In this document: positions 1 through 64,000 of the stretch, in pieces
How positions within the stretch are numbered: position 1 is the stretch's first letter
Layout of the letters: the number at the start of each line of letters is the position of its first letter
DNA from: a virus
Lineage: Duplodnaviria > Heunggongvirae > Uroviricota > Caudoviricetes
Direction: 5' to 3' (one strand)
IMG/VR virus record: IMGVR_UViG_3300023371_000069
DNA: 64,000 nucleotides
Translations under genes and position numbers: made by a program
Notes under the pieces: generated by a model
What the model was told of the DNA's origin: nothing
Seen by the model: only the letters and a program-made list of their open reading frames with translations
Databases searched by the model: none

Positions 1-594
1 ACTCACGAGGGTCAGCCTATTATGGGCGTATGTAACAACAAGAAGCTGAACGATAAGGAGTTCGTAAAGAAGTATGGCGAGACTACTACTTTCTCTTACG
101 GCTGCGCTCCTGGTGTTCAGTACGAACTTGAGTTCAATGAGCAAGGTGATGTTGTAAACCGCATCCCCTTCTACCACAAGAACGATATCTATGTATATCG
201 TATGACCATGACTAACGAGGATGGCGAGGTTGTAGAGTACACTCCTGACCAGATGCGTCATCGTTGTATGTACATGGGTGTTAAGACCGTTCCTCTGCAC
301 TGGTATGGCTTCATTCCCGAGAATCCTGGTTCCAAGGAAGATGACACTATCTCTGCCGGTGAATGGGTCTTGAATAAGGCAGAACAGTTCTACGATGGTG
401 AAGAGCCTATTGACCCTACTCACATCCGTGAGGGCGTCGTAGTTCGTGTAATCAATCGTCCTACTTTCACCGCCTATAAGCACAAGAACTTCCAGTTCAA
501 GGTGCTGGAAGGCATCATCAAGGAGAACGCCGAGGCTCCTGATATGGAGGAAGCAGATGGACTGGACGAGGATACTGAGGCCGAAACTGTTTGA
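1..594 (+). CDS. 5'-truncated ORF, ligase-like C-terminal region (possible RNA ligase partner for the Pnkp module); open to the window edge
   Basis: No stop between pos 1 and the ATG at 22 in this frame. EGVVVRV followed by KHKNFQFK resembles nucleotidyltransferase/ligase motifs IV and V. Acidic C-terminal tail. Confidence 0.3.
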   Translation, partial: THEGQPIMGVCNNKKLNDKEFVKKYGETTTFSYGCAPGVQYELEFNEQGDVVNRIPFYHKNDIYVYRMTMTNEDGEVVEYTPDQMRHRCMYMGVKTVPLHWYGFIPENPGSKEDDTISAGEWVLNKAEQFYDGEEPIDPTHIREGVVVRVINRPTFTAYKHKNFQFKVLEGIIKENAEAPDMEEADGLDEDTEAETV

Positions 595-767
595 TTTCCA
601 GAGCATGGAAGAATATGGGGAGTGGCTATGTAGCCACTCCCAAGATGTACCAGACCCAGGAGAAGTTTGGTGCTTTAGAATACACGCAGAGGATTATTTT
701 TGGATTAAAATTGGCGATGGTGTAAGAAAATATTCTGACCTGTGGCCGATGTATGGGAGGTAAAGTC

Positions 768-1004
768 ATGGATAAATATACCCTCCAAGAGCAAGCCTAT
801 AAGAAAGGATTTCAAGATGGGTTTGCGGAAGGCGCAGAGAGAGGTAAGTCTGAGTGGGTATATGCAGATAATAGTGAAATTATCTGTAAGGCTTGCGGTA
901 CGCGCCAAGCTAGATTTTATGGAACGGGTGAATCCGTTCATCGCTACGAACAAAATTACTGTCACTATTGTGGCTGTTTAATGACATATAATTTGAAAGG
1001 ATAA
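768..1004 (+). CDS. small Cys-rich (zinc-ribbon-like) hypothetical protein
   Basis: ATG at 768 preceded by GGGAGG; CxxC...CxxC pairs. Confidence 0.4.
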   Translation: MDKYTLQEQAYKKGFQDGFAEGAERGKSEWVYADNSEIICKACGTRQARFYGTGESVHRYEQNYCHYCGCLMTYNLKG

Positions 1005-1261
1005 TGGAAACCATGTTTGAATTTTTAAAAAAGACTCCTACAATCACTCCTTTGGAAAGTTTACAGAATCGTTCTGCCAGTGCAGTAAGCATTATTCGTT
1101 CCACGATTGACCAACTTAAGGCAACTAATGAGGCCATCGACCAGGAACACGCAAATAACGATTCTGCCATCGTGAAGTTAAATACAACCAACTCCGCTTT
1201 GGAAACTCTAAAGGCGGACAATGCTAAGGTTATCGCAAATTTTGAGAATTTGCTGTCCTAA
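1004..1261 (+). CDS. hypothetical protein, helical
   Basis: ORF with AAGGA before the ATG; no recognisable domain. Confidence 0.4.
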   Translation: METMFEFLKKTPTITPLESLQNRSASAVSIIRSTIDQLKATNEAIDQEHANNDSAIVKLNTTNSALETLKADNAKVIANFENLLS

Positions 1262-1274
1262 AAAAGTGTCCTAT

Positions 1275-59806: not shown

Positions 59807-59819
59807 TACAATTAATTAG

Positions 59820-62800
59820 TTAACTATATTTAAAATAAACTGAACCAGCAGGAGCTGCACCAGATGGGGCTGCAGTACCATAGCCAGTCATACCGACAAT
59901 TTGTAAGAATGTAGTACTTCCTTGAGTATTATTATTGATATATAATTTACCGTTAGAAGCAAGACCTATTTGCGCTGCAACACGTCCACTCCAATGGAAA
60001 CTTAAACGAGGAGCAACTCCCCAAGTATCAGATTGAGCGCCGCCAAAACCGTATTCACGAATTTCAACTGCTGAATCACTATAAGCAGAAGTAGATGTTG
60101 AAGTACCTCTATTTGCAAATCTTGCGCCATAAGCAAATAAATCACCATAGAAATTCCAATGTTGTTTATAATCTACCCAATTACCAGCGATATCGCAAGC
60201 TCTAAATTGAATAGTGTCACTAGAATCATTAGCGCCCATACCAGTGTAATTACTACCAGGTTTATCCCACATAAAAGCAGCGCCATTACTAGTTTGTTTA
60301 TATCTATAGCCAAAGATTGGTCCAATATTAACTAAAATACCAGCTTTAGTTAACGTTAAATTACTTCCAACACTATTATTATTTTCAATACAGAAATCTC
60401 CAACTGCACCATAAGTACTTCCAGCTGTTCCCCTACGACCGATTAACCAACCGCCATCATGAGTGCCTTCTACAGTATTCGTTCCAGAGAAGAATAAGTT
60501 AGACCATCCATTTGATGCAGGTAAAACACGAATACCTTCATTATAAGAAGAACCATTGCCTTTTACAACCAAACGACCATCAATATAAGTTGCACCAAAA
60601 ATAGTAAATGGAAAAGCTGTTGCTGAAGTCTAAGCGCCATTTACAGAAGTTTGATTATTAGTTTTATTATAATAAATAATCCAACGTCCTTTTGCTTCAT
60701 TATACAATCCTTGATGAGGGTCACTTGACATCAATGTCATATAACTAGTACTATTACCAAGAATAATGCCTTCATATCCACCTCTAACATTACCATACAT
60801 CATAAAACCGCCATAACCTGTTACAGTATTTGGGTATAAATGATTACCATAAGAAGCATTATACCAACCTGTTGCGCCACTTGAACGGAACCAATTAGAA
60901 CAAGATACAGAGCCAGTTACTCCAGCATCATAGCCAGTATAAATTCTATCGCCACCAACAATTGGAGCATATAATAAACCAGATTCAACATTAAATGACA
61001 TACCTTTATCATAACTATTTTCAGTACGACTCGTAGTAGAACCAATCCAATAAAATTGTTTGCCTAATGTACCAAAACTAAACCACTTAGCAACATTAGC
61101 ATGACTATTAGTTGCACGTATCCAAGGATTATAGCTGCCATCATTAGAATAAGTATTTACATTATAAGCACCGTTATTATAACGCTAACCATCAATCCAA
61201 GAAGAAGGTACTGTTTCAGATAAGTAACGACCTGAAGAATATGTCATTCCAGCTACTTCTAGTTTATAACTGGGAGTACTACCATTAGCAATTAATTTAC
61301 CAATCGCAACACAATTATTTTTAATTTGTAAACCGGGAGTTATTTTAGTCCATCTATCAGCAGCCATATTAGTAATAGTGTCTTCACCATTAACAAACAT
61401 AAAACTCGTAACTACGTTTTTAGTAGTAAATAACATAGCTTCATTACCACTTGTTTGATAACTAATTACACCATCATAATCACTATGTCCAGTGCGGAAA
61501 TTTAAACTTGAAATATTTCCGCTCCAACTTAACGTTCCACTCATGGAATCGCCAGTTACATTTACAAAACGGCTATCGGCTTCTGCTTCGGTGTAATATC
61601 GAGCATCTAACTTGGTAGTATAATTTTCATCAGTAATAAAATCATACCAGCCTTTAACGGTACTAGTATTACCCTCCATGCGGCGATATTTTGGAGGATC
61701 CCAAAATGGTATAGCAATAATCTAATGATAATAACTAGAGCCATCTCCATGATTAGAAACTAAATAAGATGCCCATCCGCTATTGCCAGCGAACTCTCCA
61801 GAAGTTTGAAACCAAGTAAAATTACCATTACCATAACCAGTACTTGCTAAGGCATTGGCAGTAGTTGCTGTTGTTGCATTACCACTTAAATTACCACTAA
61901 AAATTGGAGCAAATAATGTTCCAGTAGAAGTTTGAATTGTAAATCTATCATCATAAGCAGGTCGACCTGTTGTATTATTATCATAACAAAACCAAATGCG
62001 TCTTTTAGTCGTACTACTAGAAGCTAAATCATTTGTAGTAATCGGAGTTAAAGCACTAGCTGTTGTAGCATTACCACTTAAAGCTCCATAAAAGGTTGTG
62101 GCATACATGGAACCCCATTTATTACCAGAAGTACCAACACTACCAGTGTTAGTTGTCTATGGATAAAAATAATTGGAGGTATTAAGAGTTACTCCATTCG
62201 TGGTGGTTGCATTATCTGCATTCGTATGAAATCTAATATTACTGTCTGCACCGAGAATTAAATCCTCAGTAGAAGTAACTTTTAGTTTTGTTGAATATAA
62301 AGTACTAGCAGCCTCACCAGCTCCAATATAAGTAGTGCCGCCAGCACCAATAACTAAGCTATGTCCATAATTTGTTCCGTCATCATATATTGCCATTGGA
62401 GTAGAAGTATAATTTGTGGTTTTATATGACACTAAGCCAGTCATTGTTCCGCCTGATAATTTTAAATATCTTCCATCGACAATGCTTGTCCAGTTTCCAG
62501 AATCAAGAATAGTTTTCCAACTACCAAAAGTTGCAGAATTATAAGCATTGCGCATATATAAATTTCCAGTTGTGCCACCGAAACCTAACTAGGTAGCGTA
62601 ATTACCAGTATGAGTATGTAAGTGAATAAGTCCCCATGCATTGTTCATGCCAGAGGGTTTCACAGATGTTGTAATATTTCCACCTGTTGTACTAACCGTA
62701 TGTACATAAGATGGAGTATTAACAACTTCAGTAGATGATATTGCAGTATTACTATTGTAATATCTTAAGAATCCAGTAGAATCAATATTATCTAAAGTGT

Positions 62801-63347
62801 TTGCATTACCAGCAGAAGTTGCATAATTAGCGCTGGTAGCATTGCCATTAAAAGTTGTTGCCACAAGAGTAACTCCTGCAGTTCCGCCTTTACCATTACC
62901 AAAATTATAAGTAGTAATATTACCATCAGTTGCTCCACTTGCAGTTCGATAGTTAATCCAAATGGCTCCAGAATAAGCCGGAGATGCAAATGTATATTCA
63001 TTTGTAGAATGAATCATATCATTATAAGATTTTAACTTCGCATAAGTAGAAGTGATAGTACTTCCATTTGCATCAGCGGTTGCTTTTGCGGCAAGACCAC
63101 TAATACTAATAGGCCAAGTTCCAGAAGCATTAAGTCTAATTACATTAGCTGTATTCGTGGGACTAGACCAAACAACATTGCCACCATCAGCAAAAGCTTT
63201 AATACCTAAAAAATAAGGTAAAGATGTAGATTCTTCAGTTGAACTATCTACTGCAATACCGCCAAAGGCTCTTAATAATTGAGAAGAAGTTATCTCATTT
63301 AAAAAATTAGCTTTTCCAAGGACGAGTAAATCATTTACTTGTGCCAT
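59820..63347 (-). CDS. giant tail-fibre / receptor-binding protein (~1175 aa) carrying five in-frame TAG codons
   Basis: Six consecutive same-frame minus-strand ORFs separated only by TAG (plus coords 60630-32, 61185-87, 61722-24, 62157-59, 62589-91). AAGGAG RBS before the ATG at 63347, true TAA at 59820-22 followed by a terminator. Gly/Asn/Thr/Ser-rich fibre-like composition. Confidence 0.6.
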
Positions 63348-63366
63348 TTAAATACTCCTTTCTCTC

Positions 63367-64000
63367 TTAAATTTCATATATCTTAAATGCTTGTAAATAT
63401 TCTTTATCAAGCATACTAGTTTTTGTTAAGTTGGGTAATGTATCAATTCTTACCCACAATTCTGTTTCAGTTTGTGAAGTGCCATCTGCGGCAGGAATAA
63501 ATTTAGTACTATCCCAAGCAGATTTCTGTCCAATAGGAGCAAACCAAGTTGAGCCAGTGTCACAGTTATAGACGCAAGCTGAACCATGTTTACGAATGCC
63601 TGCATTATGATTATTCCATGCTGTTGTAATAGCAGTAAAACCAGTTACAGTACTTGCATTTGGAGAGCTTGTTTGTGTCCATCTATTATATAAAGAATTT
63701 GACAAAGACGGATAAGTTAACATAAACTCATATTTACCATCTACTTTAAAATGGTCTACTAAACCCATTCGACTAAAACGATTAGCCTAATTGCAAAAGG
63801 CAACTTCGCTAGCAGTAAACCAAGTTTTATCCGTAGTCACGTCAAGCCAATGAATACGTGCCCAAGCACTATTGTCGGATAGCACTTTAACTTTCATACC
63901 GCCAATATATCCAATTTCAGAAATGTCAGCAGCTTTTAACATACCCTATTTAGTCATTTTAATATCAAAACTATCAGGCTCTTCAATAAATTCATAAGCC
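63367..64000 (-). CDS. 3' part of another tail-fibre-like gene running off the window (in-frame TAG at 63787-89)
   Basis: The frame continues upstream past the listed ORF through a TAG; TAA stop at 63367-69. Confidence 0.45.

What the first reader, a model, noticed from the sequence alone, without database searches (positions are those of the whole stretch)
1..64000. Strongly non-uniform distribution of in-frame TAG: none in the first 17 kb, 9 in one GIY-YIG gene, at least 6 in tail fibres
All genes from 1 to ~17.2 kb (MVP, NAD island, Pnkp, flotillin) are free of internal TAG. Internal TAGs start at 17.3 kb and are concentrated in the GIY-YIG protein (9 in 331 codons), guanylate kinase (4), RuvC (3) and the tail-fibre genes. 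This is the pattern expected if TAG read-through is used as a timing switch. Early genes are translatable in the naive host, and TAG-containing genes become translatable only once a phage suppressor tRNA (and possibly release-factor interference) is present. It also co-varies with the compositional boundary near 17.2 kb.
Basis: seen in the sequence. Interest (0 to 1): 0.65.

Follow-up and report, generated by a model that had tools for sequence, protein, structure and literature searches.

The report
Amber-to-glutamine phage with TAG-free early block
This is part of a large gut or rumen phage that reads the TAG stop codon as glutamine but keeps TAG out of its early host-takeover genes and core replication enzymes, a published pattern of which this is a clean new example.

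Summary
The window has 38 in-frame TAGs. There are 9 in the GIY-YIG gene, 4 in guanylate kinase, 3 in RuvC and 7 in two tail-fibre genes. The GC-richer block at 1-17.1 kb has one in-frame TAG (14968), not none. With 8.7 kb fetched upstream, this block is 41 consecutive genes with no TAG inside a conserved domain (gene-level Fisher p=2e-5).

TAG means glutamine. At conserved sites, relatives carry only CAA, CAG or TAG (PhoH 31/31; GIY-YIG motif 66/66).

TAG density per gene is conserved across roughly 70 related phages. It is about zero in early-block genes, gyrase, ligase and PolIII, and high in GIY-YIG, RuvC, RecJ and virion genes.

The block boundary at 17.2 kb coincides with a terminator and a promoter. 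Codon usage shifts stepwise toward A-ending codons, which the relatives' tRNA arrays decode.

Amber-suppressor tRNAs occur in those arrays in relatives. None was found in the 77 kb held for this phage.

The timing-switch idea is the published model (Borges et al.). It fits at block level. Within the replication block, TAG varies gene by gene under shared host-type promoters, and the lysis cassette has none.

The lone early-block TAG gates a conserved C-terminal tail.

The parts
1..17107 (+). Early-type block (continues at least 8.66 kb upstream of the window). It encodes RNA ligase, an MVP-like protein, an NAD island, a kinase and phosphatases, and flotillin. It is GC-richer, uses mostly CAG for Gln, and has no TAG inside a conserved domain.
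   Evidence: Pfam; TAG table; GC; codon usage
1274..1302 (+). One of the near-identical host-type extended -10 promoters of the early block. The others in the window are at 3892-3920, 7318-7346, 11484-11512 and 13373-13401.
   Evidence: Pattern search gave 14 matches against 0.27 expected; intergenic sequences
14383..15096 (+). Metallophosphatase gene. Its single in-frame TAG (14968-14970) lies between the phosphatase domain and a conserved Cys-rich tail that ends in ...YKRDAPDGGYYG.
   Evidence: Relatives show 0 TAG in 6,550 core codons. All 10 related loci with the DGGYYG tail have at least one TAG in the linker. 18 relatives stop with TAA or TGA exactly at this position.
17123..17150 (+). 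Terminator-like hairpin (12-bp stem, then a T-rich run) at the end of the early block
17228..17256 (+). Near-consensus host-type promoter (TTGACT-17-TATAAT) that opens the replication block. Looser copies are at 22636, 31141, 34242, 36654, 43957, 45476 and 53081.
17289..19249 (+). First TAG-containing genes: two small ORFs (TAG at 17589 and 17911) and a PIN-PhoH gene (TAG at 19106, at the conserved Gln of the GDxxQxD motif)
   Evidence: 31 of 31 relatives have CAA or CAG at the PhoH site
19325..22567 (+). Lysis cassette: a 777-aa multi-domain endolysin and two holin-like membrane proteins. It has 0 TAG in this phage.
   Evidence: In relatives the holin-like gene has TAG in 13/19 loci and the lysin in 8/21.
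22709..30878 (+). GyrB, RNase H, GyrA and NAD-dependent ligase. They have 0 TAG here and almost none in any relative.
31573..32565 (+). Membrane-anchored coiled-coil protein with a C-terminal GIY-YIG domain, carrying 9 in-frame TAGs. It is a conserved, syntenic family gene.
   Evidence: TAG present in 54/68 relatives, 18 per 1000 codons. Sites 258 and 268 align only with CAA, CAG or TAG.
33748..34245 (+). Dihydrofolate reductase, 1 TAG (33943)
36717..37376 (+). YorH-like protein, 1 TAG (36750)
40782..42518 (+). RecJ-like exonuclease, 2 TAGs (40920, 40995)
   Evidence: At site 72 relatives have CAA, CAG or TAG in 59 of 62 loci and 40 of 45.
45538..49500 (+). DNA polymerase III alpha, 1,320 codons, 0 TAG
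   Evidence: 0.11 TAG per 1000 codons across 78 relatives
49708..50277 (+). Guanylate kinase, 4 TAGs. It follows PolIII in what looks like the same operon.
54946..55431 (+). RuvC-like resolvase, 3 TAGs
   Evidence: TAG present in 52/69 relatives, 26 per 1000 codons.
56693..64000 (-). Start of the structural block: small virion-region genes and tail fibres. The 1,175-aa fibre has 5 TAGs and the next fibre has 2 in the window. These genes have very low GC3, and the fibre genes use CAA almost exclusively (0-1 CAG each).

Best explanation
The window comes from a large SPbeta-related phage, probably of anaerobic Clostridia. The longest public contigs run to about 130-160 kb. The phage decodes TAG as glutamine (genetic code 15) for part of its genes.

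Shown here:
- TAG is in frame in conserved genes and aligns with Gln codons in relatives.
- TAG use is sorted gene by gene, and the sorting is conserved across about 70 related phages.
- It is absent from a GC-richer, promoter-dense early block and from core replisome enzymes.
- It is moderate in nucleotide-metabolism genes.
- It is high in nucleases (GIY-YIG, RuvC, RecJ) and in virion and fibre genes.

Inferred:
- Early-block mRNAs are translated by the unmodified host machinery. They use G/C-ending codons, CAG for Gln, and read TAG as stop.
- A phage tRNA array, carrying decoders of A-ending codons and an amber suppressor that resembles tRNA-Gln, then changes the translation regime.
- TAG-containing mRNAs would then give full-length protein only after the suppressor builds up, and less efficiently the more TAGs they carry.
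- TAG would thus act as a translational delay or attenuator on top of transcription. It would be strongest for nucleases and structural genes.
- The one early-block TAG, at a domain junction, would give a short phosphatase first and a tail-bearing form later.
For: TAG means Gln:
- PhoH site: 31/31 relatives have CAA or CAG.
- GIY-YIG site 258: CAA 44, TAG 22. Site 268: CAA 40, CAG 15, TAG 10.
- RuvC sites 8, 65 and 125 and RecJ site 72: mostly CAA, CAG or TAG.
- TAGs of relatives align mainly with CAA or CAG in the window.
- Homology crosses the TAGs.

Sorting by gene:
- Gene table and statistics.
- Family densities per 1000 codons: GyrA 0.02, GyrB 0.07, LigA 0, PolIII 0.11, flotillin 0, against GIY-YIG 18, RuvC 26, g58833 38.

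Early character of the block:
- Nine near-identical host-type promoters, then a terminator and a promoter at 17.1-17.3 kb.
- Sigma factor, Thg1-like, RNA ligase and NAD genes.

Both block edges couple GC content with TAG, here and in relatives.

Codon gradient from early block to replication block to structural block: TTA .09/.32/.61, AAA .29/.53/.86, CAA .25/.54/.77. The relatives' arrays hold Leu(taa), Lys(ttt), Gly(tcc), Gln(ttg) and similar tRNAs.

tRNA(CUA):
- Present in 27 of 80 metagenome relatives and in 4 ENA contigs whose DUF2828 protein is 96-98% identical to that of the closest IMG/VR relative.
- Many copies have U1, G2, G3 and G73.

TAG as a stop or gate in the early block.

The published model matches.
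Against: - No tRNA of any kind was found in the window, in 8.7 kb upstream, in 4.8 kb downstream, or near PolIII or GIY-YIG in about 145 related loci. The suppressor is therefore shown only for relatives.
- Nothing about timing was measured.
- In the replication block, TAG-rich and TAG-free genes sit behind the same kind of host-type promoter, apparently in the same operons. Transcription class therefore does not predict TAG.
- The lysis cassette is TAG-free here, unlike the lysis genes stressed in the published model.
- Family-wide, the region upstream of flotillin is TAG-poor rather than TAG-free: 0.97 against 1.94 per 1000 codons with a crude ORF call.
- GC3 and TAG density are confounded at block level.
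Confidence: 0.7

Rival explanations
1. Dose control rather than timing. Suppression is always partial, so each TAG lowers the yield. Selection places TAGs in genes whose products are harmful in excess (GIY-YIG, RuvC and RecJ nucleases) or needed in small amounts, whatever the time of expression.
For: The densest replication-block genes across the family are nucleases. They share promoters and apparent operons with TAG-free genes. Nine TAGs in one gene would cut the yield steeply unless suppression is near complete.
Against: This does not explain why 41 consecutive early genes of many functions avoid TAG. It also does not explain why long fibre proteins tolerate 3-5 TAGs each. It is not exclusive of the timing model.
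Confidence: 0.35
2. Neutral composition effect. TAG accumulates by drift from CAG or CAA in AT-rich genes. The early block has none because it is GC-richer, or was acquired from a standard-code source.
For: TAG density rises with the drop in GC3 from early block to replication block to structural block. The fibre genes have 0-1 CAG each. The NAD genes occur in only 3-8 of 35 relatives, so part of the block is accessory.
Against: AT-rich long genes are TAG-free here and in 23-78 relatives, depending on the gene: the endolysin (GC3 0.23, in the window only), GyrA, GyrB, LigA and PolIII. Gmk (GC3 0.42) and GIY-YIG (0.35) are TAG-rich. Core early-block genes are conserved and TAG-free in 26-35 relatives, including low-GC ones. 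TAG is concentrated in one linker: 16 in 515 codons against 0 in 6,550.
Confidence: 0.12
3. The TAG-interrupted genes are pseudogenes or assembly errors in a standard-code phage.
For: Standard-code gene calls fragment them.
Against: The interruptions are TAG only, never TAA or TGA. The same sequence is assembled in many independent samples. Full-length homology and Gln alignment hold across about 70 relatives.
Confidence: 0.01

Closest known systems
Stop-codon-recoded gut phages and the 'code switch' model (Borges et al., bioRxiv 10.1101/2021.08.26.457843; earlier Ivanova et al. 2014, from my own knowledge)
   Same: TAG is read as an amino acid in a phage whose early genes remain compatible with the standard code. 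Recoded codons concentrate in structural genes. Use in replication genes is variable. That work also reports an endonuclease preferentially loaded with recoded stops, and suppressor tRNAs encoded by the phage lineage.
   Different: Here the lysis cassette carries no TAG. The TAG-free block is also a distinct GC3-rich codon-usage island with its own promoter family. One early gene carries a TAG exactly at a domain junction. The suppressor was not found for this phage itself.
Phage phAss-1 and the proposed Phassvirus genus (PMC10607447)
   Same: TAG-to-Gln recoding in a roughly 136-kb gut phage. Its PolIII alpha is as close to this one (38%) as that of SPbeta. 28% of its ORFs carry TAG, mostly virion genes plus some DNA enzymes. 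It has 36 tRNAs, including three tRNA(CTA).
   Different: It is only distantly related (38% PolIII identity). Its authors describe different synteny. No TAG-free, GC-rich early block is described for it.
Bacillus phage SPbeta group
   Same: The replication module is shared: YorL-type PolIII alpha (38%), YorF and YorH Pfam families, DnaB, primase and a RecJ-like gene.
   Different: As far as I know, SPbeta phages use the standard code and lack the NAD island and the tRNA array.
Leaky-stop C-terminal extensions in viruses (Q-beta A1 read-through protein, MuLV gag-pol UAG-to-Gln read-through; from my own knowledge)
   Same: A stop codon at a domain junction would give a short and a long product from one ORF, as proposed here for 14383-15096.
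   Different: In this phage the read-through would depend on a phage suppressor tRNA that changes over the infection, not on a fixed low-level leak. Neither isoform has been observed.

Membership tests
Code-15 (TAG to Gln) recoded phage | In-frame TAG in conserved protein genes, with homology continuing on both sides | tested here: met
   Gmk, DHFR, PhoH, RuvC, RecJ and GIY-YIG
Code-15 (TAG to Gln) recoded phage | TAG positions align with glutamine in homologues | tested here: met
   PhoH 31/31 CAA or CAG. GIY-YIG sites 258 and 268 align only with CAA, CAG or TAG. RuvC sites 8/65/125 and RecJ site 72 align mostly with CAA, CAG or TAG.
Code-15 (TAG to Gln) recoded phage | TAG is not used as an ordinary terminator | tested here: met
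   All 96 modelled genes have an open frame that closes with TAA or TGA. Only one ORF has a TAG at a position where relatives stop. The test is weak, because the frames were defined with TAA and TGA as stops.
Code-15 (TAG to Gln) recoded phage | Phage-encoded suppressor tRNA with anticodon CUA | tested here: inconclusive
   None in the 77.5 kb held for this phage. Present in tRNA arrays of 27/80 metagenome relatives and 4 close ENA relatives. About 90 kb of this genome could not be fetched.
Code-15 (TAG to Gln) recoded phage | Host uses the standard code | not testable with these tools
   There are only weak host hints: relatives are binned with Clostridia MAGs, and the phage has an anaerobic ribonucleotide reductase.
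Code-switch regulation (early genes standard, late genes recoded) | Early genes are free of recoded stops and late structural genes are enriched | tested here: met
   Early block 0 sense TAG in domains; replication block 2.2 per 1000 codons; structural block 3.9 per 1000. The early and late labels rest on gene content and promoters only.
Code-switch regulation (early genes standard, late genes recoded) | Lysis genes are preferentially recoded | tested here: not met
   The endolysin and two holin-like genes have 0 TAG in this phage. It is met in some relatives.
Code-switch regulation (early genes standard, late genes recoded) | TAG-containing proteins appear later than TAG-free ones | not testable with these tools
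   This needs time-resolved proteomics or ribosome profiling.
GIY-YIG homing endonuclease | GIY-YIG catalytic domain | tested here: met
   Pfam PF01541 at 1.8e-7, residues 242-322; PHROG homing-endonuclease families at 4e-14
GIY-YIG homing endonuclease | N-terminal catalytic domain followed by a C-terminal DNA-binding domain | tested here: not met
   The domain is C-terminal. The N-terminus is a membrane helix followed by about 200 aa of coiled-coil-like sequence.
GIY-YIG homing endonuclease | Sporadic, mobile distribution among related genomes | tested here: not met
   Homologues occur in 68 related loci, most of them near full length. Where the same contig also yielded a PolIII locus, the two genes lie in the same relative order as in the window.

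The most novel reading that the evidence does not exclude
The code change is one half of a two-regime translation programme, and it is used inside single genes as a gate.

In the first regime the host tRNA pool reads a GC3-rich early block that uses mostly CAG for Gln and treats TAG as stop. In the second regime a phage tRNA array reads A-ending codons and reads TAG as Gln.

The early metallophosphatase (14383-15096) would be made as a short enzyme before the suppressor appears. 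Afterwards it would carry a conserved Cys-rich tail. The linker TAG is kept in every related locus that has the DGGYYG tail, while the catalytic domain never carries TAG.
Probability: 0.3. Interest if true: 0.6.

Novelty: new member of a known kind. Interest (0 to 1): 0.4.

Why it matters
The finding adds a well-resolved example, from a large and apparently undescribed SPbeta-related family of gut or rumen phages, to the evidence that phages sort an alternative genetic code by gene.

The family-wide comparison shows that TAG density per gene is conserved. This argues for selection rather than drift, and it gives concrete targets for testing the code-switch idea:
- a 9-TAG nuclease-domain gene behind a host-type promoter;
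- TAG-free PolIII and TAG-rich guanylate kinase in one apparent operon;
- a TAG-gated protein tail.

There is also a practical point. Standard-code annotation of these contigs breaks the fibre, nuclease and kinase genes into fragments.

Tried and rejected
- Near-identical DNA search in GenBank phages: no match.
- ARAGORN and Rfam on the window: no tRNA and no other RNA family.
- Walking along this phage's own genome to find the suppressor:
  - The exact-protein look-up reaches only 10 kb beyond window genes.
  - One look-up failed because I trimmed the wrong end of a minus-strand gene.
  - IMG/VR lacks this phage.
  - The three homologue searches returned cluster representatives, not this phage's own proteins.
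  - The contigs reached (L260-L266) share only the DUF2828 gene or belong to relatives.
- My first reading of the TAG at 14968 as a plain stop rested on the closest relative alone. More distant relatives showed that the tail is conserved, so I withdrew it.
- I first took the MVP-like gene upstream in the closest relative for a second copy. It is the same gene, relocated.
- Pseudogene and assembly-error readings are rejected, as is the view of GIY-YIG as a sporadic mobile homing endonuclease.
- A tRNA-like Rfam hit in L171 with an odd anticodon arm was not pursued.

Full report
WHAT THE WINDOW IS

The window is a stretch of a large phage genome.
- Positions 1-17.1 kb (plus strand, GC 0.42-0.49) encode an RNA ligase, a major-vault-protein-like protein and an NAD island. 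The island holds nicotinamidase, a PRPP-type transferase, SIR2, NAMPT, NAD synthase, NADAR and NMNAT. The block also encodes a P-loop kinase, two metallophosphatases and a flotillin.
- Positions 17.2-56.7 kb (plus strand, GC 0.35-0.40) form a lysis and replication/nucleotide module. It contains PIN-PhoH, a 777-aa endolysin with holin-like genes, GyrB, RNase H, GyrA, LigA, a GIY-YIG protein, ThyA, DHFR, DnaB, primase, RecJ, a PIF1-type helicase, PolIII alpha, guanylate kinase, NrdD/NrdG, dUTPase and RuvC.
- Positions 56.7-64 kb (minus strand) begin the virion and tail-fibre genes.
- The same sequence is assembled in many ENA and JGI metagenomes, on contigs of 130-158 kb and more.
- The nearest GenBank relatives are the SPbeta group and phage phAss-1, at 38% PolIII identity. 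Pfam YorF and YorH families are present.
- Relatives are binned with Clostridia MAGs.

CHECK OF THE OBSERVATION

- 9 in the GIY-YIG gene;
- 4 in guanylate kinase;
- 3 in RuvC;
- 5 and 2 in the two fibre genes;
- 15 more in eleven other genes, including one at 14968.

Homology to Pfam families and solved structures crosses the TAGs. ENA gene calls that read through TAG give intact proteins where JGI standard-code calls give fragments.

I joined the window to 8.66 kb fetched upstream and 4.8 kb fetched downstream and modelled 96 genes in three blocks:

| Block | Genes | Codons | TAG |
|---|---|---|---|
| Early | 41 | 7,741 | none inside a conserved domain |
| Replication | 44 | about 12,400 | 27, in 13 genes |
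| Structural | 11 | about 3,800 | 15 |

The contrast is significant. Gene-level Fisher p=2.4e-5. A run of 41 TAG-free genes has permutation p=4e-4. At the outside rate, 19 TAGs would be expected in the early block. TAG is overdispersed among the remaining genes (p=3e-8). GIY-YIG stands out with 9 TAGs among 19 Gln-type codons (p=7e-6).

The observation therefore stands, with one correction that is treated below.

WHAT TAG MEANS

I fetched about 180 related loci from IMG/VR, around PolIII, GIY-YIG and flotillin. I aligned them to the window's proteins with TAG treated as sense.

At conserved sites the relatives carry only Gln codons or TAG:
- PhoH GDxxQxD motif: 17 CAA and 14 CAG.
- GIY-YIG 'YVGQ' site: 44 CAA and 22 TAG. 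The next conserved site: 40 CAA, 15 CAG and 10 TAG.
- RuvC sites 8, 65 and 125 and RecJ site 72: mostly CAA, CAG or TAG.

Conversely, the TAGs of relatives align mostly with CAA or CAG in the window. TAG is therefore glutamine, that is, genetic code 15.

THE SORTING IS BY GENE AND IS CONSERVED

TAG density across relatives, per 1000 aligned codons:

| Class | Values |
|---|---|
| Early-block genes | flotillin 0 (35 loci), kinase 0 (34), metallophosphatase-1 0 (26) |
| Core replisome | GyrA 0.02, GyrB 0.07, LigA 0, RNase H 0, PolIII 0.11 (78 loci), primase 0.5-0.8 |
| Nucleotide enzymes | 0 to 2.5 |
| Nucleases | RecJ 5-9, GIY-YIG 18 (54 of 68 loci), RuvC 26 (52 of 69) |
| Small genes beside the virion block | 10-38 |

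The GIY-YIG gene is not a roaming homing endonuclease. It is a conserved and mostly full-length family gene, and where both genes were found on one contig it lies in the same order relative to PolIII as in the window. It encodes a membrane anchor, a coiled coil and a C-terminal GIY-YIG domain.

Conserved densities per gene argue for selection rather than drift. AT-rich long genes stay TAG-free, for example the endolysin (GC3 0.23, in the window) and GyrA. Gmk (GC3 0.42) is TAG-rich.

THE EARLY BLOCK

- It carries nine nearly identical host-type extended -10 promoters, TTGATTTTTATAAAAAAATATGWTATAATATATAT. Five lie in the window and four upstream.
- It holds a sigma-70-family factor, a Thg1-like enzyme and RNA-repair-type genes just upstream of the window.
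- It ends with a strong terminator-like hairpin (17123-17150), followed by a near-consensus promoter (17228-17256).
- Both the GC step and the TAG-free state recur in the closest IMG/VR relative, over at least 34 kb.
- In another relative, a 194-kb ENA contig, the left edge of the block is visible. Four low-GC genes with 1-3 TAGs each sit immediately before a GC-richer run of 23 TAG-free genes.
- Codon usage shifts stepwise from early to replication to structural block: TTA 0.09/0.32/0.61, AAA 0.29/0.53/0.86, CAA 0.25/0.54/0.77, CCA 0.08/0.29/0.44.
- The large GC3-rich early genes use CAG almost exclusively (MVP 0 CAA/36 CAG, flotillin 0/25). The fibre genes use CAA plus TAG and almost no CAG.

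THE SUPPRESSOR

No tRNA lies in the window, in its flanks, or near PolIII or GIY-YIG in relatives.

A gene for a DUF2828/DUF7788 protein lies at the upstream edge of the early block in the closest IMG/VR relative. I used it to scan metagenomes.
- 27 of 80 related loci carry a tRNA with anticodon CTA.
- So do four ENA contigs whose DUF2828 protein is 96-98% identical to the query.
- In the loci examined in detail, the tRNA lies in an array on the same strand, a few kb upstream of that gene.
- In the closest of these loci the order around it is Ser(tga)-Sup(cta)-Leu(taa)-Gly(tcc), and the array ends with Met and Cys.
- Rfam confirms that these are tRNAs.
- Many begin UGGGG... and end ...CCCC-G-CCA, with position 1 unpaired and G73. 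From my own knowledge this is the acceptor signature of bacterial tRNA-Gln.
- Most array tRNAs read A-ending codons, which are the codons that rise along the gradient.

I could not link such an array to this exact phage.

THE ONE EARLY-BLOCK TAG

The metallophosphatase ORF 14383-15096 has a TAG at 14968. Among 36 orthologous loci:
- 18 stop with TAA or TGA at exactly that codon and lack anything further.
- The closest relative has TAG there, lacks the tail, and its next gene starts 54 nt later. That is a true TAG stop.
- All 10 loci that have the conserved tail (C-x2-C-x-Y...C...C-x2-YK[RK]D[AP]PDGGYYG), like the window, carry 1-3 TAGs in the short linker.
- The 6,550 catalytic-domain codons carry none, against 16 TAGs in 515 linker and tail codons.
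- One locus has a related Cys-rich tail fused with no stop.

The tail must therefore be translated, and the TAG sits where termination yields a natural short form. I read this as a candidate conditional read-through. It is an inference.

The idea is the published model. Early genes are compatible with the host code. Code-change factors are made. Recoded late genes then become translatable. The model's authors report variable use of the alternative code in replication genes, and they report a homing endonuclease preferentially loaded with recoded stops (Borges et al.; see also phAss-1).

The data here fit the model at block level. They also qualify it.
- Replication-block promoters are of the same host type as early-block ones.
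- TAG-rich and TAG-free genes share apparent operons: ThyA and DHFR with GIY-YIG, PolIII with Gmk, dUTPase with RuvC.
- Any delay must therefore be translational and specific to each gene. A pure dose-control reading remains open.
- The lysis cassette is TAG-free in this phage, though not in several relatives.

VERDICT

This is a real, non-random feature. It is a new member of a known kind: a TAG-to-Gln recoded phage with an early programme that remains compatible with the standard code. Its added value lies in the family-wide conservation of TAG load per gene, the coupling to a codon-usage island, and the TAG-gated tail.

Noticed in passing
window 3946-12438: A dense NAD-metabolism island: nicotinamidase, PRPP-type transferase, YqeY-like, SIR2, NAMPT, a 168-aa ORF with no Pfam hit, NAD synthase, NADAR, AAA_28 kinase-like and NMNAT. 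It looks like a phage NAD+ reconstitution (counter-defence) set. Only 3-8 of 35 relatives have these genes.
   Followed up: partly
window 1274, 3892, 7318, 11484, 13373 (plus four copies 2.4-7.6 kb upstream in L007): Nine almost identical promoter-like repeats, TTGATTTTTATAAAAAAATATGWTATAATATATAT, often just after a hairpin. Looser versions occur through 17-53 kb. None occurs on the minus-strand virion block. The pattern gave 14 matches against 0.27 expected.
   Followed up: partly
window 11159: A 1-nt deletion in an A-run (AAA to AA), relative to the otherwise identical ENA contig, frameshifts the AAA_28 P-loop gene (10947-11474). The gene is intact (175 aa) in that contig.
   Followed up: yes
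window 1337-3853; L165:41-949: A major-vault-protein-like gene (Vault_3 and MVP shoulder domains). The closest relative also has a DUF2828/DUF7788 protein at the edge of the same block. In that relative the MVP gene sits about 13 kb further upstream.
   Followed up: partly
window 1-594, 12656-15096; L007 3821-4627: An RNA-repair-type set in the early block: RNA ligase, an AAA_33 kinase with two metallophosphatases, and a Thg1-like enzyme. This is notable for a phage family that depends on its own tRNAs.
   Followed up: no
L265 1204-1817; L260 4411-4593; L261 5327-5509; L264 4607-4694; L183 1767-1854: A full-length ROOL RNA (320 bits) and partial OLE-like hits lie inside the tRNA arrays of relatives.
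   Followed up: no
L264 11705-16000; L260-L264 6800-9900: A reverse transcriptase and an Mtd_N gene (a diversity-generating retroelement) lie next to DUF2828 in one relative. In the four relatives where it is visible (L260, L261, L262, L264), the slot just upstream of DUF2828 holds three different restriction, methylase or GmrSD gene sets.
   Followed up: no
L192 6552-6642, L265 4727-4817, L202, L212, L217, L222, L227, L239: Some tRNA(CTA) genes of relatives are 88-98 nt long, with a long extra arm or insert. The amino acid they carry may therefore not be the same in all lineages.
   Followed up: no
window 19325-21658: An unusually large endolysin (777 aa) combines M15 peptidase, phage lysozyme, amidase_2 and SH3 domains. 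It is TAG-free here, but its homologues in relatives carry TAG.
   Followed up: partly
window 1337-3853, 15599-17107 versus 59820-63347: Glutamine codon choice is nearly all-or-none by gene. MVP has 0 CAA and 36 CAG, and flotillin has 0 and 25. The fibre has 16 CAA, 0 CAG and 5 TAG.
   Followed up: partly
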